This document shows positions 22,312 through 62,870 of a stretch of 64,000 nt of DNA, in pieces. The notes under the pieces were generated by a model, which saw only the letters and a program-made list of their open reading frames with translations, made no database searches and had not been told where the DNA came from. The DNA is taken from the NCBI GenBank assembly GCA_963727805.1, contig CAVSHF010000003.1, forward strand, positions 2,397,327 to 2,461,326, read 5' to 3'. Made by a program: the position numbers and the translations under genes. The stretch's first letter is position 1. Each line of letters begins with the position of its first letter. The stretch is from an uncultured Nitrospiraceae bacterium. GTDB taxonomy: Bacteria; Nitrospirota; Thermodesulfovibrionia; Thermodesulfovibrionales; Dissulfurispiraceae.

Positions 22312-23715
22312 ATGGACAAGCAAAAGCTTCTATCAGACCTACCCTCCGTTGACGAGATTGTGAAGTCAAAAGATGGTATCGAGTGGCAGCAGAAATTTCC
22401 ACGAGTCTATGTTGTCCGGGCGATCCGTGAAATAATCCAGCGGCAGCGTGACGCCATTCTCGATGGCAGGTTTGAAGAAGCAGGTATTGATGACCTTCTG
22501 CCTGAGATCGAGAGGCAGATTGAAAAGCTGTCACGGTGCAGCCTAACCCCGCTTATCAATGCTACCGGGATCGTGATACATACGAACCTGGGAAGATCGA
22601 TCCTATCCGATGCGGTCCTCGAACAGGCAACCAAAATCGCCGGAGGCTATTCAAACCTCGAATATGATCTCAAGAAGGGCGAGAGGGGCAAGCGATACTC
22701 CCATGTCCAGAGGCTGCTTAAGGAACTCACCGGCGCGGAGGCCGGCATTGTCGTCAACAATAATGCCGCTGCCGTCTTCGTGTGTCTGACCGCTCTTGCC
22801 CGAGGCCGGGAGGTCATAGTTTCGCGGGGAGAGTTGGTCGAGATCGGAGGTTCATTCAGGATACCGGATGTGATGGCGAGCAGTGGTGCCATACTAAACG
22901 AAGTGGGAACTACTAACAAAACGCATGGCTATGATTACGAAAATGCACTAAACGATAATACGGCGCTTATGCTTAAAGTACACCAGGCTAATTTTAGGAT
23001 GATAGGCTTTACCGAGGCGCTGTCCATTGGGGAGCTAGTTGCCATCGGCAAGAAATATAGCGTGCCCGTTATGTATGACCTCGGGAGCGGCTGTTTCGTC
23101 GATCTTAAGCCCTATGGCATTCATATCGAGCCGACTGTTCAGGAAATCGTAAAAGCCGACGCCGACATCGTTACCTTTAGCGGAGATAAACTTCTGGGTG
23201 GACCGCAGGCAGGCGTTATCGTTGGTAAGAGGAAACTAATTGATATAATAGCAAAAAATCCACTTATGCGTGCAGTCAGGGTCGATAAGATGACGCTCGC
23301 TGCCCTTGAAGTGACCCTCAGGTGCTATCTTGATCAAGAGACAGCAATTGAGAAGATACCTACCCTGTCGATGCTGCTCCAGGCTCCGGAAAAAATCATG
23401 GAACGGGCTAAGAAGATCTTGAAATTACTCAAACGAGGACTGAGCGCAGACGACGGCGCTACGGTGGAGATTGATGTGGTCGAGGATCTATCGCAGTCAG
23501 GTGGTGGTGCATTGGCCGAGGTGCCGTTCAAAACCTATGCGATTTCGATTATGCCGTCGAAATTGTCCGTTAATGCACTCGAAGACAGGTTGAGGCATGG
23601 GAATCCTCCTGTGATTGCGCGGATAAAGGATGATGCCCTTATACTCGATGCCCGCACCGTGCGAAACGAAGAGATCAAGATGCTAGTGAACGCGGTTAGG
23701 GCGGCCCTGATTTAG
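22312..23715 (+). CDS. selA: L-seryl-tRNA(Sec) selenium transferase
   Basis: INATGIVIHTNLGRS, VNNNAAAV, RGELVEIGGSFRIPDVM, FSGDKLLGGPQAG. Confidence 0.97.
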   Translation: MDKQKLLSDLPSVDEIVKSKDGIEWQQKFPRVYVVRAIREIIQRQRDAILDGRFEEAGIDDLLPEIERQIEKLSRCSLTPLINATGIVIHTNLGRSILSDAVLEQATKIAGGYSNLEYDLKKGERGKRYSHVQRLLKELTGAEAGIVVNNNAAAVFVCLTALARGREVIVSRGELVEIGGSFRIPDVMASSGAILNEVGTTNKTHGYDYENALNDNTALMLKVHQANFRMIGFTEALSIGELVAIGKKYSVPVMYDLGSGCFVDLKPYGIHIEPTVQEIVKADADIVTFSGDKLLGGPQAGVIVGKRKLIDIIAKNPLMRAVRVDKMTLAALEVTLRCYLDQETAIEKIPTLSMLLQAPEKIMERAKKILKLLKRGLSADDGATVEIDVVEDLSQSGGGALAEVPFKTYAISIMPSKLSVNALEDRLRHGNPPVIARIKDDALILDARTVRNEEIKMLVNAVRAALI

Positions 23716-53733: not shown

Positions 53734-54564
53734 TTATTTTTTCGATTCCCACAGGAGGATGGCGGTCTTCTTCACGCTGCCCCAGTGATAGCCGCCGATT
53801 GCTCCTGTTTTCCGGATGACCCTGTGGCATGGGATCAGGAAGGCGACAGGGTTGTGTGCAACGGCGTTCGCGACAGCGCGGACGGCCTTTGATTTGCCTA
53901 TAGAATCGGCTAGTTCCTCATATGAAACGACAGCACCTCGAGGAATCCTCAGGAGCGCCTCCCAGACCTTGATCTGAAAATTTGTCCCTTGCACGTGCAA
54001 GGGAAAGCGAGGACTATCTGCACGACGGATGAATATCTTATCGACATACGCTTTCGTGACCTTCCGGTCACAGACGATCCGCGCATTTTTCCATTGTTTT
54101 ACTAAGTCGGCGACAGCTTTATCACCCTCCCTGCTCCCAAGAAATTCGAGGCTGCATATCCCCTTATCCGTAACTGCTATAAAGCACTCACCGAAGGGAG
54201 TCGGATGAAAACCGTAACGGATGGTGATGGTATCTCCCCGCCTCCGAAATTCACTAGGTGTGGCCGCTACCATATTGATGAACAGCTCATGAAGGCGGCT
54301 TATGCTCGAAAGGCCGCTCTCATAGGCCACTTCGACAAGGCTCTGGGGATTTTTCAGAAGTTCTTTTGCATAAACGGCCGTGACGAATTGAAGAAAGCGC
54401 TTTGGACTTATCCCGGCCCAGCGTTTAAAAAGCCGTTGAAAATGGTACTCGCTAAGGCCCGCATCAGCGGAGATTTCTTTTAGAGTTGGCTGCTTCTGGA
54501 ATTTATTTTCGATGAAGAGAATCGCCCGTTCAATACGCTTATAATCATTATGAAGAGCTTTCAT
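53734..54564 (-). CDS. AraC-HTH / methylated-DNA-protein-cysteine methyltransferase fusion (Ada-like, no Zn domain)
   Basis: LSEYHFQRLFKRWAGISPK; GTNFQIKVW, IPCHRV; AGGAGG RBS before ATG 54564. Confidence 0.9.
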   Translation of the reverse strand: MKALHNDYKRIERAILFIENKFQKQPTLKEISADAGLSEYHFQRLFKRWAGISPKRFLQFVTAVYAKELLKNPQSLVEVAYESGLSSISRLHELFINMVAATPSEFRRRGDTITIRYGFHPTPFGECFIAVTDKGICSLEFLGSREGDKAVADLVKQWKNARIVCDRKVTKAYVDKIFIRRADSPRFPLHVQGTNFQIKVWEALLRIPRGAVVSYEELADSIGKSKAVRAVANAVAHNPVAFLIPCHRVIRKTGAIGGYHWGSVKKTAILLWESKK

Positions 54565-54653
54565 TGAGCACCTCCTGCTGTCATCATACCCGATGACGAA
54601 AAGAGGATCAATCCGATTCTTGCTGTGTTGCGTGCTAAGGTGTGACAGAGAGA

Positions 54654-55307
54654 CTATAATCCCATGTCCTGATTGATCAGGACTACCTTGATCCTGTTTT
54701 TCGGGAACGACTTCTCTGTAATAGTCCAAACATTGCAAATTCTGTCAGGGCTCTTACAGTTCTGGCAGAAGGAGGTTGTCACGCAGGGCGTTTTCTTGTC
54801 TAGCCTCATTGCGTTCACGGGTGCCGAATAATTCTTGATGCGAGTCATGGCACTTTCCAAATCGGTAACGAGTTTATTCCGGCCAACAAGGACAACCACG
54901 TTCTTCGGACCGAAGTTCAGGGCACCCACCCTGTTGCCCATCATGTCGAGATTGACCAACTGCCCATCTTCGGTTATAGCATTGGTCCCAGTAAAATAGA
55001 CATCGACCAATAGGGCTTGTCTGCGCCGCTCGTAAGCCTCCGCAGGCGATATAGTGGGCTCATAGGGATTGATTATCATCAGAGAAGGGTCATTCGACAG
55101 GACCTTCCCGATACCGCAAGCACCAAACGTCATTGAGCCGCCCCAGGAAATGCTCTTGGGAGCAAGCGGCGGAACGATAGTATTCAAAACAACGTCCCTG
55201 GCCTCATCAGACGACGCGACAAGAAAGACTTCGAAATTATTCGCCACAAGTTCTTCTTTGAGATCTCCCAGTCTGATGTGCCAGTAATTTTCGCCGGGGT
55301 TCTGCAT
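54654..55307 (-). CDS. LUD-domain (lactate utilization LutC-like) protein
   Basis: WGGSMT, TNAITEDGQLVNLD..GNRV, GRNK, C-terminal PC..C..C....C. Confidence 0.82.
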   Translation of the reverse strand: MQNPGENYWHIRLGDLKEELVANNFEVFLVASSDEARDVVLNTIVPPLAPKSISWGGSMTFGACGIGKVLSNDPSLMIINPYEPTISPAEAYERRRQALLVDVYFTGTNAITEDGQLVNLDMMGNRVGALNFGPKNVVVLVGRNKLVTDLESAMTRIKNYSAPVNAMRLDKKTPCVTTSFCQNCKSPDRICNVWTITEKSFPKNRIKVVLINQDMGL

Positions 55308-55560
55308 TTGACCCTCCCTTACTGTTTATTAGCTAAACGCACTGGTGGCGTAAAGCGGAGTCGGTAATCTTTCTGCAAATCCGTGTATCTGCAATCCTAT
55401 CACACTGCAAGTGAGTTTGCAATCATAGAGAATTCATCATAGAGAATTCGATCATATATTTAATATGAATTATAATTGCAACGTGATTTCAGGGGAAACT
55501 CATGTCGATTCTCCCTGCCAATATGTGGATGTTTCATACGGCGAGAGATGAGATGTAAAC

Positions 55561-56157
55561 TCAAAGTCGAGTAACTAGTTTCCCGAGCACTCTTTCGTAA
55601 TCTTCTCTGGTATCTATATCGATTATGACGCCTTCGTCTATAACCTCGACCGTTCTAACCCTTTCAGGATTTCTGTTGACAAGATCTTTTAACGTGCCTC
55701 CTTTGAAGATCTCATCGACAACATGCCTGGGGAAGAGAGTCGGATGACCGCGTTTTCCCTTATATGCGGGGATGATAATCTTGGCTGGGGCCTCGTAGTG
55801 CAGCCTGAGCAGGTTTTTTAATGTCTCCTCAGAAATCAGCGGATGATCGGAAAGGCTGACAAGGATACCGGATGTAAAAGGATTAACGGCTCTAAGGCCA
55901 ATTCTCACCGAGTTCGCCATTTCGCTGCCGAGGTCTTCGTTAAAAACAGCTTTTACCGGTAGTCCCTGCAGTGTCTTCAACAATTTCTCGCTGTTGCGTC
56001 CGAGGACTACGACAATCTCATCAATGTCCGTAGCGATAATGCTGTCGATGCAATGCCTGATGAGCGGTTTGCCGTCAAGAGGAAGAAGCTGTTTCGACTG
56101 CCCCATTCTTCTCGATGATCCCGCTGCAAGAAGAATGGCCGATACTGCTAAATGCAT
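55561..56157 (-). CDS. mocA: Molybdenum cofactor cytidylyltransferase-like protein
   Basis: LAAGSSRRMG..KQLL, DHP, GHPTLF, DIDT; next to xdhC. Confidence 0.8.
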   Translation of the reverse strand: MHLAVSAILLAAGSSRRMGQSKQLLPLDGKPLIRHCIDSIIATDIDEIVVVLGRNSEKLLKTLQGLPVKAVFNEDLGSEMANSVRIGLRAVNPFTSGILVSLSDHPLISEETLKNLLRLHYEAPAKIIIPAYKGKRGHPTLFPRHVVDEIFKGGTLKDLVNRNPERVRTVEVIDEGVIIDIDTREDYERVLGKLVTRL

Positions 56158-56914
56158 CTTTCCTCCTCTGTTCGATGATCTGCGCCATGATACTTATTGC
56201 GATCTCCCCGGGCGTTACAGAACCTATCGGGAGTCCGACGGGAGTGATAATCCTGCCGATATCATCATCCGTAAATCCAGCATCCTTAAGAAAACGAAAA
56301 AGGACTGCCATTTTGCGCTTGCTTCCAACGAGGCCCACATATCTTGCCTTAGTCGACAATGCCGCCTTGACGGCGTCGAGGTCGTGATTGTGCCCCCTTG
56401 TGGCGATAACGATATACGAATTGCGGTCGATCCTGATTCCTGAAAAGGCCTCGCCGAATTCAGCCACGACTACATTGTCTGCATGCGGAAGATTCTCCTT
56501 GTTTGAGAACTCTGCCCTGTCATCCACCACCGTGACGCGGAAACCTGAGATACTTGCAACCTGGGAGAGTGCCTTTCCTACGTGCCCCGCGCCGAGGATT
56601 GCAAGATGCGGTTCGGGGATTATCGGTTCGATAAAGACAAAGACTTTCCCTCCGCACACAAGCCCGCCATGTTTCTCAGTAAGATTGAAGGGGACAGTTT
56701 TAGGAAAGCCCTCTTTAATGGCAAGCGAGGCAAGCTCAATCACTTCCGCCTCGATGCATCCACCTCCAAGTGTCCCAGTGATTAAGCCGTCGTCCCGAAT
56801 GAGCATCTTCGCCCCTTCCTTTTGCGGCGAAGAGCCGATTGACTGTACAATAGTGGCGAGGGCACATGGTCTGCCCTCTTTTTTGAGCCTCACGATTTCC
56901 TCGTAGACGTCCAT
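56075..56914 (-). CDS. xdhC: XdhC/CoxI molybdoenzyme maturation factor
   Basis: GTLGGGCIE, GLVCGG, GAGHVG, YVGLVGSKRK, PVGL..TPGEIAISI. Confidence 0.88.
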   Translation of the reverse strand: MDVYEEIVRLKKEGRPCALATIVQSIGSSPQKEGAKMLIRDDGLITGTLGGGCIEAEVIELASLAIKEGFPKTVPFNLTEKHGGLVCGGKVFVFIEPIIPEPHLAILGAGHVGKALSQVASISGFRVTVVDDRAEFSNKENLPHADNVVVAEFGEAFSGIRIDRNSYIVIATRGHNHDLDAVKAALSTKARYVGLVGSKRKMAVLFRFLKDAGFTDDDIGRIITPVGLPIGSVTPGEIAISIMAQIIEQRRKDAFSSIGHSSCSGIIEKNGAVETASSS

Positions 56915-56917
56915 TGG

Positions 56918-59098
56918 CTAATCCGCTTTCAAGTCTCCGGCTCGGATCGGCAGCCGCCGTATGCGTTTGTCTGTTGCCGCAAATATCGCATTACCCACGG
57001 CTGGAGCGATAGGCGGTACTCCGGGTTCACCCACTCCGCCAGGTGGCTCTGTATTCGACACTATAAAGACATCGACGATAGGCATTTCGTTCAAGCGCAG
57101 TACGGGGTAGTCGTGGAAATTGCTCTGCTCGACACGACCGTTCTTCAATGTAATCTCACCATGTAGCGCAGCGGAAAGCCCAAATACAATCCCTGATTCC
57201 ATCTGCGCCCTTATGGTGTCGGGATTTACGATCTTGCCGCAATCGATGGCGCATACTACTTTATGCACCCGGACAGTTCCATCTGGTTTTACAGACACTT
57301 CGGCAACATGCGAAATGAAGCTGCCGAAGGACTCATGGACCGCTATACCCCGGGCACGTCCCGCTTTCAATGGTTCGCTCCAATCTGACTTTTCAGCAGC
57401 GAGTTTCAATACACCAAGATGGCGCGGATGATTTTTGAGGAGTGTAAGACGGTATTCGTACGGATCTTTGCCGGCGGCGTGCGCAAGCTCATCGATGAAA
57501 CTTTCAACGACAAAAGCCGTGTGAGAGTGGCCGACAGAGCGCCACCACTGCACCGGCACTCCTATTCTCGGACTGTGTAAGTCAACATGGATATTCGGGA
57601 TTGCATAAGGAATATCCTGCGCGCCTTCCACAGAGGTCTGGTCGACACCTTCCTTTATCATGCGGGTGAAGGGTGTTCCCTCTAAAATCGATTGGCCGAC
57701 GATTGTATGGCGCCAGGCAACGGGATTCCCCTCTTTATCCAGCCCAGCGGCGATACGGTCATACCACATTGGACGATAATATCCTCCCCCGGTATCGTCC
57801 TCTCGTGTCCAGATAACCTTGATTGGCTGCTTTACACCGACTGTTCGTGCCGCTTTTGCGACATGTGCTGCCTCCGAAACGAAGTCCGTTTGAGGATTTG
57901 CCTTGCGACCAAAACCGCCCCCTAGATAGGTGGTATGAAGTTTCACTTGCTCCGGCTTGAGGTCTAATATGCGCGCGGCAGAGTTGCGGTCGGCTGTCTG
58001 GAACTGCGTGCCAGTCCAGATTTCGCAGCTGTCGCTCCGATAGTCAACAAGGCAGCTCAGGGTTTCCATGGTTGCATGTGCGAGATAGGGGACAGTGTAT
58101 TCGGCGCTGATCTGTTTTGCCGCCTGCTTTAGCGCATGATCGGCATCTCCCTCCTTACGGGCAACTGCCCCCGGAGTTTTAGCGAGAGCTGCATACTCTT
58201 CAAGTTGCTTCTGGGTGTCGAATGTGGCAAGTGGGCCTTCGTCCCATATGATTTCGAGGGCGTCGCGGCCCCGATGTGCAGACCAGCAGTCATCGGCGAT
58301 AACGGAGACCCCTGAATTGATCTGAGCCACCGCCGTGACACCTGCCATCGCCTTTGCCTTGTCCGCGTTGAAGGTTTTCACCTTTCCGCCAAAGACAGGA
58401 GGGCGTGCAACCAGTGCGATGAGCATTCCCGGGACCTTTACATCAATACTAAAGACAGCCTTTCCGTTCACCTTGTCGGGAGTATCGAGGCGCTTTATGG
58501 GTTTGCCAAGAAACTTATCATATGAAGGCTTTTTCAGGGGAATATCGCTGGGAGCTTCAAGAGTGGCAGCCTTCTCTGCCAATTCTCCATATGAAAGGCG
58601 TTGCCCCGCCGGGCCTAGCACGATACTGTTCTCTGCCCGACAATTGTTGGGACTGACCTTCCATATGTCCGCTGCCGCGGCGATTAACATCATTCGCGCT
58701 GCGGCCCCCGCCTTGCTTAGGCGCTCCCACTCACTCCTGATGCTTGTGCTTCCGCCGGTCCCTTGCAAAGTCCCCCATTGAGCATGGTTGTACGCTGGGT
58801 CAACTGGAGCAGGCTCGACACGAATCTTCGACCAGTCGACTTCGAGTTCCTCTGCGACGAGCATCGGAAGGGATGTGTACACCCCTTGTCCCATCTCCGA
58901 CTTGTTGACGACGATCGTTACAGAGTTGTCCGTGCTGATGCGGATGAAGGCATTTGGGGCGAAGGAAGCTGACTTCTCGGATGCTTCAACTGGGGATTTG
59001 CAGGGATCAAGAGAGAAGCCGAGAACCAATCCCCCCCCGATAAGGGCCCCAGTCTTGAGAAAGTCGCGGCGGCTTATGTTAATGATGTTGTTCATCAT
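56918..59098 (-). CDS. Xanthine-oxidase-family molybdopterin subunit (IorB/aldehyde dehydrogenase type)
   Basis: [37 protein letters not shown]. Confidence 0.9.
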
Positions 59099-59571
59099 TT
59101 ACCTCCTTCCGCGATCACGTTGGTCGCCATAGTGCCAGAGGCGCGATGTATCGCGCGCCTGATTCGCTGATATGTGCCACAACGGCATATGTTACCTGAT
59201 AGGGCATTGTCGATATCAACGTCGCTCGGTGCAGGATTATCTTTGAGCAAGGCCACCGCTGACATGATCTGCCCCGGGTGGCAATATCCGCACTGAGGAA
59301 CGTCATCTTCGATCCAGGCTTTTTTGACGGGATGAGTTTCGGGGATGCCTTCTATCGTGGTGATTTTCTTGCCCTGAGCTGCGTTCACAGGGACCTGGCA
59401 GGAGCGCTCGGGCTTCCCATCGATATGAACGGTACATGCGCCACACTGCGCGATACCACATCCATACTTCGTTCCGATAAGTCCAAGATGCTCCCTGATC
59501 ACCCAGAGCAGGGGCATATCGGAGCTCACATCCACTTCATACTTCTTGCCGTTCACATTGAGAGAGATCAT
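59095..59571 (-). CDS. 2Fe-2S subunit (IorA-type)
   Basis: [27 protein letters not shown]. Confidence 0.92.
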
Positions 59572-59704: not shown

Positions 59705-59734
59705 TGTATTCAGGATGGCTGTATTCAGGATGGC
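59705..59734. repeat. 15-bp tandem duplication
   Basis: TGTATTCAGGATGGC x2. Confidence 0.85.
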
Positions 59735-59770
59735 TTGACATGAATATTAAAGTATCATAATATTATGATA
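59735..59770 (+). promoter_or_regulatory. arsR operon promoter with overlapping palindromic operator
   Basis: TTGACA-17-TAATAT; perfect 18-bp palindrome TATCATAATATTATGATA at 59753-59770. Confidence 0.65.
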
Positions 59771-59791
59771 TAAAAATCTTTAGGATGGATT

Positions 59792-60133
59792 ATGAGATCA
59801 TATGGCAGACAGGCGGATATTTTACGGGTAATCGCTCATCCGGTGAGGATCAGGATATTAGGTGAGCTCATCAAAGGGGTTAAATGTGTAAGCGACATCG
59901 AGAAATTTCTTGAGCTGCCGCAGTCAAATGTATCACAGCACCTATCCCTCCTGCGAAACACCGGCATGATCGACTATTACACGGACGGCAGGCTTAGGTG
60001 TTATTACCTCAGGGACCCCATAGTCCCTGACATTTTGAATGTATTGAGCAAAGAATACAGTGAGGAGCTTCCGGCTCCAGCATGTTGTCCGGTAACAAAG
60101 AAAGGCACTTATCCAGGAAGGAGCCCGCAATGA
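59792..60133 (+). CDS. ArsR/SmtB family transcriptional regulator
   Basis: AHPVRIRIL, KCVSDI, QSNVSQHLSLLR; C-terminal PACCP. Confidence 0.9.
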   Translation: MRSYGRQADILRVIAHPVRIRILGELIKGVKCVSDIEKFLELPQSNVSQHLSLLRNTGMIDYYTDGRLRCYYLRDPIVPDILNVLSKEYSEELPAPACCPVTKKGTYPGRSPQ

Positions 60134-60480
60134 AGATCAACAAAGAAATTACTATGTTTTTTACCACCACACCTTACAGCTCTGAAAACACCCATACTAT
60201 TATCAAGTTTGCCGACGCAGCGCTGAGGAAAGGCCACAAGGTGCGCCTTATTGCATCGGGAGACGGCGTCTTTTCCGTAGTGAAAGGGCAGGTCCCCGCC
60301 GCCTTCTCAGCCCTTGAAGACCTGGTAAGTAGAGGGCTTAAAGTGGATATATGAACAGGCTGCATGCAAGCCCGCGGTCTTGCGGGTGAGGATTCGGTTG
60401 AGGGGGGAGAAATGAGCTCACTGAAAGGGCTTTTCAACACAATCAAGACACGCCCGATTTTCTTGAGTGTTGGCTCGTAA
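60130..60480 (+). CDS. DsrE/TusD-like protein, probable selenoprotein (U75)
   Basis: TTPYSSE, GDGV; in-frame TGA 60352-60354 in VDI-U-TGCMQARG; frame continues 41 codons to TAA 60480. Confidence 0.82.
60371..60386 (+). promoter_or_regulatory. Putative bacterial SECIS hairpin
   Basis: CCCGCG-GTCT-TGCGGG, stem starting 16 nt after the UGA, loop begins with GU. Confidence 0.65.
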
Positions 60481-60490
60481 CGAGGACGAG

Positions 60491-60844
60491 ATGGGAATCA
60501 TAAGCATCCTATTGAGGAAAAGTCCTTACGGTACCGTTGATGCGGCAGAGGCAGTACGGCATGCGCTGGGCGGGATTACCGAAGATATGGAAACGCATCT
60601 TGTGCTGGTTGATGGAGGAGTCAATGCAGCAAGAAGAGGGCAGGATCTCGTCTCTACTGGATATGCGAGCATCGAGGAAGGCATAAGGGATTGTATCGAT
60701 ATGGGCATTACTGTCTCTGTCGACAAAGAATCAGTGACGGTGTCCGGCATGGAGCCGCAAGACCTCGTCGAGGGCGTGAACATTCTGAGCGGTCCCGAAA
60801 TAGTCGGACTAATACAAAAAGCCGATACAACCATGATATTTTAA
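60491..60844 (+). CDS. DsrF/TusC-like protein
   Basis: LLRKSPYGT..AAEAVR, VDGGV, VDKES, KADTTMIF. Confidence 0.75.
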   Translation: MGIISILLRKSPYGTVDAAEAVRHALGGITEDMETHLVLVDGGVNAARRGQDLVSTGYASIEEGIRDCIDMGITVSVDKESVTVSGMEPQDLVEGVNILSGPEIVGLIQKADTTMIF

Positions 60845-60854
60845 TGGAGGAGAA

Positions 60855-61136
60855 ATGCTCGTACTTGTCAAGAGCGGTCCGGACACTGCGGAAGGGAACC
60901 GCGGTATTAGTATGGCGAGGGAGATGACTGCCGACTTGGTCCTGATTCAAAATGGCGTCTATTTTGCTATCGCAGAGAGACTTGAAGGGTTCCCGGGGAC
61001 CATCTATATTCTCGATGAGGACAGCAAACTGAGGGGACTCAGGGATGAAGCACTCAGAAAGGATGCTAGCAAGCTTGATTATGACGGGCTGGTTGATGCC
61101 ATAACCGAAGAGGATAAAGTCGTTGGTATGTTTTGA
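60855..61136 (+). CDS. DsrH/TusB-like protein
   Basis: LIQNGVY, LDEDSKLRGL, LDYDGLVD. Confidence 0.8.
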   Translation: MLVLVKSGPDTAEGNRGISMAREMTADLVLIQNGVYFAIAERLEGFPGTIYILDEDSKLRGLRDEALRKDASKLDYDGLVDAITEEDKVVGMF

Positions 61137-61153
61137 ACGATCGGGGGGGGGGA

Positions 61154-62296
61154 ATGGTAAAGCCTATCTATCTTGATTACAACGCAACGACACCGCATGA
61201 TCCTGAAGTGATTGCAGCCATGAAGCCGTACCTGGAAGAACACTTCGGAAATCCATCGAGCTTGCATTGGTATGGTCAAAAAACGAGAGGGGCGGTCGAA
61301 ACCGCGCGTGCGCAAGTCGCGTTCCTTGTCGGGTGTGAGCCTGAAGAAATCATTTTTACAAGCGGCGGTACCGAATCCAACAATCATGCGATAATGGGCA
61401 CCACCGCCGCGCTCAGAGCTAAAGGCAATCATATCATAACATCCCAAATCGAGCACCCTGCCGTGATCGAAGTATGCAAATTTCTTGAGATGCAGGGGAT
61501 TGAGGTGACTTATCTTCCCGTTGACGAATACGGGCTTGTTGATATCGTGAGTGTTGAGAAGGCCATTACGCCGAAGACGATTCTGATTACGGTAATGCAC
61601 GCCAATAATGAAGTCGGAACGATCCAGCACATAGAAGAAATTGGCACGTTAGCTCGCAAGAAGGGGATTGTCTTGCATACCGATGCCGCTCAATCCGCAG
61701 GCAAGATTTGCGTTGATGTCAATGCCTTAGGCGTCGACCTTCTCTCTATTGCGGGGCATAAGCTGTATGCCCCAAAAGGTATCGGTGCCCTTTACATTCG
61801 CCGTGGCCTCGAACTTGGAAAATTCATGCACGGCGCTGGACAGGAAAGCGGGAAAAGGGCAGGGACCGAAAACGTCCTTGAAATCGTCGGACTCGGAACA
61901 GCCTGCGAAATCGCCGCACGTGATCTCAACCTGAACATACCGCACTTTCGGGAAACAAGAGATCAGCTCTACGATGGGCTCAAGCAAAAAGTGAAAGACA
62001 TCAGACTGAATGGGCATCCTGAGCTCCGACTACCGAATACCCTGAGTGTCTGCTTCAGGGGGATTGAAGCACAGGACCTCCTTTCTGCCATTCAGGATCG
62101 CGTCGCTGCATCGGCGGGCGCGGCATGCCATTCGGGAGAGTGCAGACTATCGTCCGTGCTTACTGCAATGCGTGTGCCGGAGGAATGGGGCCGTGGGACG
62201 CTCAGACTATCAACAGGCAAGATGACGACAAGCTCAGAAATTGAAAAGGCGCTCGCCGTCATCTCGAATGCAGCCTTGCAAATCGTTAAAGGTTGA
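61154..62296 (+). CDS. Group I cysteine desulfurase / selenocysteine lyase-like PLP enzyme
   Basis: YLDYNATTP, GNPSS, TSGGTE, ANNEVG, HTDAAQ, GHKLYAPKG, SAGAACHS. Confidence 0.9.
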   Translation: MVKPIYLDYNATTPHDPEVIAAMKPYLEEHFGNPSSLHWYGQKTRGAVETARAQVAFLVGCEPEEIIFTSGGTESNNHAIMGTTAALRAKGNHIITSQIEHPAVIEVCKFLEMQGIEVTYLPVDEYGLVDIVSVEKAITPKTILITVMHANNEVGTIQHIEEIGTLARKKGIVLHTDAAQSAGKICVDVNALGVDLLSIAGHKLYAPKGIGALYIRRGLELGKFMHGAGQESGKRAGTENVLEIVGLGTACEIAARDLNLNIPHFRETRDQLYDGLKQKVKDIRLNGHPELRLPNTLSVCFRGIEAQDLLSAIQDRVAASAGAACHSGECRLSSVLTAMRVPEEWGRGTLRLSTGKMTTSSEIEKALAVISNAALQIVKG

Positions 62297-62303
62297 TGGG
62301 GGG

Positions 62304-62870
62304 TCAGATCGTCTTTCCGATTGAGAAGGCCTTACCGATAGAAGTGCCGATTCCATAATAGCCGGTATTGCCCGGATCAAAAACGAGCGGTTTTATTTTC
62401 AGAATGTCGGGCATTCTGTTGTCTCCCAGCACCGACTCGTCTACCTTTACGTCGATGATCTCGCCGATGAACTGCGTATGCATCCCGATCTCAATGGTAT
62501 GGAGCAGCCTGCATTCGAGCACGACGGGGAATTCTTTCACATAAGGGGCGTCGACAAGGTCGCTTCGCACAGGGGTAAGCCCTGTTGCCATGAATTTGTC
62601 GGTATTCTTTCCTGATACGATGCCAGAATAATCGGCTTCTCTTGCGTGCGCTTCAGACGGCATGCTGATCGTATAGGCCTGGCGGTTCACGATGCAGTCA
62701 TATGTATAGGTCGCTTTGCGTAGCGATACCGCGACGCATGGTGGCTTCGAACAACAAATCCCGCCCCATGCTGCGGTCATAATATTCGGTTTTCCAGTGC
62801 GGTCATACGTTCCGATGACCCATACCGGGGTCGGATATGCCAGAGTCTTTGCTCCCAAAGGGATTTTCAT
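62304..62870 (-). CDS. Flavin reductase / flavoredoxin family protein
   Basis: [45 protein letters not shown]. Confidence 0.88.

What the first reader, a model, noticed from the sequence alone, without database searches (positions are those of the whole stretch)
59735..62296. arsR-dsrE(Sec)-dsrF-dsrH-desulfurase operon: candidate self-contained selenium/sulfur relay
Seen: five co-oriented genes with gaps of -4, 10, 10 and 17 nt follow one promoter and operator. The operon has no dsrAB, dsrC/tusE, tusA or mnmA. Known: DsrEFH (sulfur oxidation) and TusBCD (tRNA 2-thiolation) are heterohexameric persulfide carriers using one Cys on DsrE/TusD and handing sulfur to DsrC/TusE. Inference: a complete EFH-type complex with a Sec active site, fed directly by a co-encoded PLP desulfurase/deselenase and controlled by a Cys-rich ArsR, may be an undescribed inducible Se/S trafficking or detoxification system. 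It might supply SelD or sulfurate the cofactor of the divergently transcribed molybdoenzyme. I cannot confirm novelty without a literature and database search.
Basis: partly seen in the sequence, partly recalled or inferred. Interest (0 to 1): 0.85.

Follow-up and report, generated by a model that had tools for sequence, protein, structure and literature searches.

The report
Selenocysteine sulfur-carrier operon with desulfurase
This five-gene row in a sulfate-reducing-type Nitrospirota genome encodes a repressor, a three-protein sulfur-carrier set predicted to use selenocysteine at its active site, and a desulfurase of the kind often fused to the selenium-activating enzyme SelD, and it likely shuttles selenium (or sulfur) to acceptors encoded elsewhere; it is a rare local form of a widespread operon that usually has a sulfide-oxidising enzyme in place of the desulfurase.

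Summary
Observation confirmed: arsR, dsrE (in-frame TGA, UxxC, SECIS hairpin), dsrF, dsrH, nifS-like, gaps -4/10/10/17, one promoter with a conserved palindromic operator. The host is a dsrAB-bearing Nitrospirota with selA, tRNA-Sec and two selD. The exact five-gene order was found in no other locus. The conserved unit is arsR-dsrE(Sec)-F-H, followed by sulfide:quinone reductase in 51 of 67 loci and by this desulfurase in 3 of 67. The desulfurase groups with NifS-SelD fusion enzymes, not with IscS or the host's other desulfurases, but lacks the Asp that makes human Sec lyase selenium-specific. selD lies in or beside the operon in 8 of 75 relatives, in 7 genomes as the only copy found. Best reading (0.42): a repressor-controlled selenium relay, with the desulfurase loading the Sec carrier and SelD accepting in trans; main rival (0.3): sulfane-sulfur stress handling. 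Not self-contained: no acceptor is in the operon. Moco sulfuration is weakly supported. Sec-DsrE proteins were predicted in 2005, and this scan already found the Sec-DsrE and the SQR form on other DNA. New variant of a known kind; no function tested.

The parts
59735..59763 (+). sigma70-type promoter, -35 and -10 hexamers
   Evidence: the same -35 hexamer precedes the operator in most relatives
59744..59771 (.). 12-4-12 palindromic operator over the -10 element; predicted ArsR site; only site of its kind in the genome
   Evidence: matrix from 42 relatives' sites, single genome hit above 17 bits (23.3); no such site before dsrE in the 7 nifS-linked loci without arsR
59792..60133 (+). ArsR/SmtB repressor, 113 aa, Cys32, Cys70, Cys98-Cys99
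   Evidence: the three Cys motifs in 54, 55 and 54 of 55 relatives; below the BigR and TsoR cut-offs
60130..60480 (+). DsrE/TusD-like subunit, 116 aa, predicted Sec75 in UxxC, aligned with TusD Cys78
60370..60387 (+). upper stem and GU-starting apical loop of the predicted bacterial SECIS, loop 22 nt after the UGA
   Evidence: fold; z-score alone not significant; 90.6% of cells paired, 18 two-sided changes, 0/500 shuffles; slid controls 28-51%
60491..60844 (+). DsrF/TusC-like subunit, 117 aa, Cys68 invariant in 27 aligned close relatives
60855..61136 (+). DsrH/TusB-like subunit, 93 aa, no cysteine
61154..62296 (+). group I PLP desulfurase / candidate Sec lyase, 380 aa, Lys203 and Cys325, Pro102-Ala200-His326 signature shared with NifS-SelD fusions

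Best explanation
The operon encodes an ArsR predicted to repress it, a DsrEFH-type carrier predicted to use Sec75 as its loading site, and a SelD-partner-type PLP enzyme that likely strips selenium from free selenocysteine (and sulfur from cysteine), would load it onto the carrier, and would so feed selenophosphate synthetase encoded elsewhere. Shown: gene order, conserved TGA and hairpin, Sec machinery in the genome, the operator and its co-loss with arsR, the desulfurase's grouping with NifS-SelD fusions, the recurring selD and sqr in relatives' operons. Inferred: Sec incorporation, hexamer assembly, release of ArsR by a reactive Se/S species through its four cysteines, direct enzyme-to-DsrE transfer, SelD as acceptor. 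In most relatives SqrA would be the loader (from selenide or sulfide); here sqr is missing and the desulfurase stands in its place.
For: Desulfurase: 62-68% identical to the NifS part of NifS-SelD fusions (all 120 listed long homologues carry SelD domains) against 43-49% to the host's three other desulfurases; 22 of 80 metagenomic relatives are SelD fusions; signature Pro/Ala/His in 37 of 37 fusions and 7 of 7 dsrH-adjacent copies, not in IscS or the paralogues, which fall outside the group at support 0.998. selD in 8 of 75 relatives' loci, between arsR and dsrE in 3; the operon copy is the only selD match in 7 genomes, one of three in an eighth. Two loci hold carrier, sqr, this desulfurase and selD in one run (L035, L151). 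Desulfurases from three subclades sit in such operons. This desulfurase occurs in 7 of 20 Sec-DsrE genomes lacking a close SqrA and 1 of 62 having one. Precedents: IscS plus cysteine persulfurates DsrE-Cys78 in vitro without TusA (PMC3397948, passages); NifS-like proteins deliver Se to SelD (PMC4561486, passages); mammalian SQOR oxidises selenide (10.1101/2023.04.13.535674, listing and start of abstract).
Against: The Asp146 determinant of Se specificity (PMC3266270, passages) is Pro here, so the enzyme is not predicted to be Se-specific. 67 of 75 loci have no selD within about 10 kb; the host's two selD genes are unlinked. The dominant partner is a sulfide oxidase (51 of 67), and TauE, DsrE2 and RND neighbours fit sulfur stress. 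The desulfurase follows dsrH in only 3 of 67 loci, and 56 of 80 metagenomic relatives have neither selD nor dsrEFH nearby. The SqrA/desulfurase exclusion lies within one family, so it is not independent; L035 and G151 have both. In the same-genus genome G208 the desulfurase lies beside iorAB without the carrier genes. The tree sampled only relatives of the query and four outgroups. No structure or expression evidence was obtained.
Confidence: 0.42

Rival explanations
1. Reactive-sulfur stress operon: Sec only makes DsrE a better sulfane acceptor; the carrier takes sulfane sulfur (from SqrA in most relatives, from cysteine or outside polysulfide here) and passes it to TusA/DsrC, while selD and the desulfurase, where present, merely supply selenium for making the induced selenoprotein.
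For: sqr follows dsrH in 51 of 67 loci, RND in 34, DsrE2 in 22, TauE in 8 of 75; the Sqr is closest to Aquifex and Acidithiobacillus sulfide:quinone reductases; 78 of 82 Sec-DsrE genomes have dsrA; ArsR-sqr-tauE operons are typical of persulfide detoxification (recalled).
Against: The host has no Sqr match; the ArsR fails the BigR model (39.9 against 155); a genome's only selD inside the operon (7 genomes) is more than supply for one protein would need; tusA in 0 of 75 loci.
Confidence: 0.3
2. Chance fusion of two units: an sqr-less remnant of the arsR-EFH operon came to lie upstream of an unrelated desulfurase, and the two do not work together.
For: Exact five-gene order in no other locus; G208 has the desulfurase without the carrier; an sqr fragment in L065 shows that the operon decays; most relatives of the desulfurase stand alone.
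Against: dsrH-nifS adjacency in 7 other distinct loci (L029, L033/L070, L053, L082, L094, L158, L223) from two desulfurase subclades, a third subclade further down the same operon; all five genes intact and tightly spaced.
Confidence: 0.11
3. The desulfurase, with or without the carrier, sulfurates (or selenates) the molybdenum cofactor of the divergent IorAB enzyme through XdhC.
For: iorAB, xdhC and a MocA-like gene are divergent from the operon; iorA(B) flanks the desulfurase or carrier in L029, L033, L041, L158, L223 and G208; XdhC-desulfurase sulfuration is known (PMC2997495, search listing only).
Against: The ior-linked desulfurases that entered the tree form one clade (support 0.999), i.e. 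one inheritance; 5 of 9 genomes with this desulfurase lack IorB and 4 with IorB lack it; iorA in 1 of 75 carrier loci; no YqeB, the marker of Se-dependent Mo hydroxylases.
Confidence: 0.09
4. An ordinary TusBCD/DsrEFH working in tRNA 2-thiolation or the Dsr pathway with TusA, DsrC and MnmA encoded in trans.
For: Same three folds and active-site position; the genome has dsrABC, three TusA-domain genes and mnmA.
Against: Scores 22/89, 23/94 and 41/49 against the TusD, TusC and TusB cut-offs; 19% identity to TusD, separate clade; no DsrH cysteine; the genome has a second, Cys-type dsrH-E-F-tusA cluster beside its dsr operon; no Sec-type DsrE among the listed matches for about half of the selA-positive genomes sampled (78 of 151 have it).
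Confidence: 0.08

Closest known systems
'DsrE-like protein' predicted selenoprotein family (PF02635, UxxC; PMC1088965, PMC1794560, PMC13188914; passages read)
   Same: PF02635 fold, UxxC motif, in-frame UGA with SECIS
   Different: The passages read list the family only; no DsrF/DsrH partners, ArsR, Sqr, SelD or desulfurase context and no function are given there
DsrEFH of Allochromatium vinosum and TusBCD of E. coli (PMC3397948; passages read)
   Same: E-F-H gene trio; loading residue at the Cys78 position; direct loading by a desulfurase shown in vitro for DsrE
   Different: Sec for Cys, second Cys at +3, no DsrH Cys20, below all three curated cut-offs, not linked to dsrC/dsrAB or tusE, own repressor
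NifS-SelD (NifS-SPS) fusion proteins (PMC4561486, PMC3916229; passages read)
   Same: 62-68% identity and the same three signature residues in the PLP domain
   Different: Stand-alone, behind dsrH; SelD in trans
YTD-cluster DsrEFH-like complex of Desulfobulbales and sulfur disproportionators (PMC13047784; passages read)
   Same: Divergent DsrEFH-like trio in reductive-Dsr organisms, DsrH without Cys20
   Different: YTD has YeeE and TusA and a Cys active site; here no TusA in 75 loci, Sec, ArsR and Sqr or desulfurase. The host's dsr-linked H-E-F-tusA cluster resembles it more
SelD-YedF-Sec lyase neighbourhood (TIGR03527, TIGR01977; PMC2276186, PMC5322559; passages read)
   Same: A DsrE-domain carrier and a PLP lyase tied to SelD: the functional logic of the best explanation
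   Different: YedF is a TusA-DsrE fusion with Cys (the host has one elsewhere); the lyase here scores 175 against 377 for TIGR01977

Membership tests
DsrE-like selenoprotein | PF02635 match with UxxC at the active site | tested here: met
DsrE-like selenoprotein | conserved UGA, SECIS and Sec machinery in the host | tested here: met
   33 of 33 loci; covariation; selA, selD, tRNA-Sec; selA in 78 of 82 Sec-DsrE genomes. selB not searched
DsrE-like selenoprotein | Sec incorporated in the protein | not testable with these tools
   needs proteomics or selenium labelling
Canonical DsrEFH/TusBCD | three adjacent genes of E, F and H type | tested here: met
   F in 73 and H in 69 of 75 loci
Canonical DsrEFH/TusBCD | scores above TIGR03012/03010/03011 cut-offs | tested here: not met
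   22/89.25, 23.1/94.15, 40.7/49.2
Canonical DsrEFH/TusBCD | DsrH Cys20 (DsrEFH) and linkage to dsrC/dsrAB or a TusA-TusE-MnmA relay | tested here: not met
   no Cys in DsrH; dsr genes on another contig; tusA 0 of 75 loci
Canonical DsrEFH/TusBCD | alpha2beta2gamma2 hexamer | not tested
   no model of the complex was obtained; left open
NifS-SelD fusion proteins | PLP domain of the fusion group | tested here: met
NifS-SelD fusion proteins | SelD domain on the same chain | tested here: not met
   ORF ends at 62296 after 380 aa
Se-specific selenocysteine lyase (human type) | Asp at the 146 position (necessary for Se specificity) | tested here: not met
   Pro102; His326 matches the accessory H389; Ala200 stands for V256
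BigR/SqrR persulfide sensors; TsoR | NF040642 and NF045707 cut-offs | tested here: not met
   39.9/155 and 30.5/115; inducer not testable
Se-dependent molybdenum hydroxylase system | YqeB (TIGR03309) in the genome | tested here: not met
   0 matches in a 100%-complete genome; E. coli control over the cut-off

The most novel reading that the evidence does not exclude
Sec-DsrEFH is a dedicated selenium chaperone: sulfide-making Nitrospirota use an ArsR-controlled operon to capture selenium (from selenide by SqrA, or from selenocysteine by this lyase) on a selenocysteine, keep it apart from a large excess of sulfur, and hand it to SelD. It would be the first DsrEFH-fold complex assigned to selenium rather than sulfur traffic, and the window's operon is its smallest donor-plus-carrier form.
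Probability: 0.3. Interest if true: 0.75.

Novelty: new variant of a known kind. Interest (0 to 1): 0.5.

Why it matters
How anaerobes deliver selenium to SelD against a high sulfide background is an open question; this operon offers a small, soluble, testable donor-carrier pair with its own repressor and a single operator. It also corrects annotation: the active subunit is called as a 72-aa fragment in databases, so a carrier present in 82 of 301 sampled Nitrospirota genomes is easily missed in sulfur-cycle surveys that treat DsrEFH as a sulfur-oxidiser marker. The parts are each known; the combination and its function are not described in the papers searched.

Tried and rejected
Single-sequence folding of the SECIS was not significant (z -0.82 to 0.38); support comes from the alignment. 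PDB sequence search with DsrE gave only weak hits (YchN 5e-4, DsrE 2hy5 0.058) under spurious repeat-protein hits; pairwise profile comparison with TusD and TusC was weak (E 0.12, 0.007), with TusB 5e-6. RNA runs: two wetland metatranscriptomes held 0.05 of the words; laid contigs were mostly under 90% alike, short and unstranded, so no evidence on expression. First neighbourhood clustering was swamped by shadow ORFs and replaced by a query panel. Profile search of 1.84 billion representatives gave 216 hits without context; used only for the tree, which is poorly resolved. A tRNA selenouridine synthase-like query found only a 30-residue match in the host. No structure or complex model was obtained. 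No supplements were read; they may list this operon.

Full report
Observation. The five ORFs, their spacing, the promoter and the in-frame TGA are as described. With TGA read as Sec, dsrE gives 116 aa with U75-T-G-C78, and U75 aligns with Cys78 of E. coli TusD. The TGA is present in 33 of 33 related loci that cover it; the 120 listed protein homologues stop there. The hairpin after it has 90.6% of cells paired and 18 two-sided changes over 38 distinct sequences, against 28-51% for slid controls; kin are related and the changes also alter codons, so this is support, not proof. The genome (3.9 Mb, 100% complete) has selA, tRNA-Sec and two Sec-type selD.

Host and setting. The titled relatives are Nitrospirota, mainly Thermodesulfovibrionia (one of 34 titled Chloroflexota, two unclassified). 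The genome has dsrAB, dsrC, three TusA-domain genes, mnmA, three other desulfurases and a second, Cys-type dsrH-E-F-tusA cluster beside the dsr operon. It has no match to the relatives' Sqr and no YqeB.

What is conserved. In 301 sampled genomes of the phylum, 82 have a TGA-bearing DsrE of this family and 2 a Cys form; 78 of the 82 have selA, 78 dsrA, 62 a close SqrA (I counted only the 69 Sqr genomes at 61% identity or more and left out 25 at about 50%). I fetched 75 of the 92 strong non-own matches. arsR lies upstream in 51 of 69 loci with room; the gene after dsrH is sqr in 51 (one broken), this desulfurase in 3, something else in 13 of 67; selD is present in 8 of 75, tusA in 0. The partly overlapping set of 34 loci gives 23 of 30, and 17/3/8 of 28. 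No locus has both arsR and nifS directly after dsrH; L041 could, but its contig ends in dsrH. L035 has arsR-E-F-H-sqr-nifS-x-selD and G151 a longer run ending nifS-selD-tauE. The Sqr is closest to solved Aquifex and Acidithiobacillus enzymes (the organisms are recalled from the PDB codes).

Regulation. A 12-4-12 palindrome follows the -35 hexamer in 44 of 53 relatives' upstream regions; a matrix from 42 distinct sites finds one site in the host genome, at 59744-59771, and none before dsrE in the seven nifS-linked loci that lack arsR. The ArsR is thus predicted to control only this operon. Its four cysteines are near-invariant; it fails the BigR and TsoR models, so the inducer is unknown. Close relatives L223, L158 and L029 keep the iorA-side intergenic DNA but lack arsR and operator.

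The desulfurase. It keeps Lys203 and Cys325 and falls below the NifS, IscS and DndA cut-offs, just above the broad IscS-subfamily model NF002806 (314.9 against 304). All 120 listed longer homologues are SelD fusions at 62-68% identity (fusions are probably the commonest long forms, so identity, not rank, carries the point). Of 80 metagenomic relatives, 22 are SelD fusions, 2 (the two closest, 75% and 85%) follow dsrE-F-H, and 56 show neither. In a tree of 107 sequences the window's enzyme lies in a sister group of the fusions, apart from IscS and the host paralogues, with a shared Pro/Ala/His signature (8 short sequences left out, 15 of 120 fusion proteins used). Of the three residues that mark human Sec lyase only the accessory His is present; the decisive Asp is not (PMC3266270, passages). 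It was found in 8 of 301 genomes at E <= 1e-125 (at most 6 candidates scored per genome, and G175's cut copy was missed); all 8 have Sec-DsrE, 7 lack SqrA, but those 7 are one family.

SelD link. selD sits between arsR and dsrE in three loci and downstream in the same orientation in others. In G178, G136, G069, G131, G151, G212 and G194 the operon copy is the only selD match (two look damaged); in G191 it is one of three; G209's is split at contig ends (these are MAGs, 86-100% complete). This is the strongest sign that the unit handles selenium itself.

Molybdoenzyme link. iorAB-xdhC-mocA are divergent, and in G208 the desulfurase adjoins iorAB without the carrier. But 5 of 9 genomes with the desulfurase lack IorB and 4 with IorB lack it.

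Mechanism. Most likely the PLP enzyme forms a perselenide or persulfide on Cys325, passes it to Sec75 of DsrE in an EFH complex, and the carrier hands selenium to SelD in trans; ArsR would release the promoter when reactive Se/S species modify its cysteines. Direct loading of DsrE by a desulfurase is shown for A. vinosum DsrEFH with IscS (PMC3397948, passages). Every transfer step here is inferred. The sulfur-stress reading is close behind.

Known and new. DsrE-like UxxC selenoproteins are listed since 2005 (PMC1088965, PMC1794560, PMC13188914; passages), NifS-SelD fusions are described (PMC4561486, PMC3916229; passages), and divergent DsrEFH-like trios are known from the YTD cluster (PMC13047784; passages). 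Five full-text searches returned no paper whose listing or read passages describe an ArsR-Sec-DsrEFH operon with sqr, selD or a desulfurase; the library lacks most subscription papers and Haft and Tolstoy 2025, and no supplements were read. Earlier notes of this scan found the Sec-DsrE and the sqr form in other genomes; what this locus adds is the desulfurase form and the selD evidence. Verdict: real, a new variant of a known kind, interest 0.5.

Noticed in passing
window 59705-59734: Exact tandem duplication of a 15-mer directly before the -35 hexamer, with a third partial copy at 59779-59791; not seen in the aligned relatives.
   Followed up: partly
G000:C5:1177138-1178491 (L015): Second, Cys-type dsrH-dsrE-dsrF-tusA cluster convergent with the end of the reductive dsr operon; weak DsrE matches lie about 5 kb from dsrA in many family f21 genomes, suggesting a conserved dsr-linked carrier in reducers.
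   Followed up: partly
L099-L135: A second Sec-DsrE subfamily (about 43% identical, U-G-G-C) with a different hairpin sequence at the same spacing, in the same arsR-EFH-sqr-dsrE2-RND order.
   Followed up: partly
window 53734-59571 (-): iorA-iorB (TAT signal)-xdhC-mocA-like-LUD-ada cluster divergent from the operon.
   Followed up: partly
window 22312-23715: selA lies in the same window, 36 kb upstream.
   Followed up: no
G000:C5:260548-260910: DsrC-like paralogue without the C-terminal cysteines.
   Followed up: no
L020:6859-9149 (G000:C3 near 483 kb): One of the two selD copies lies next to two transposase-like ORFs and near a TauE gene, possibly a later arrival (transposase call by eye).
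   Followed up: no
L065 (G013): sqr and the RND gene behind dsrH are reduced to fragments in a closed genome.
   Followed up: no
window 62304-62870 (-): Flavin reductase-like gene convergent with the desulfurase; a relative is also near it in L158.
   Followed up: no
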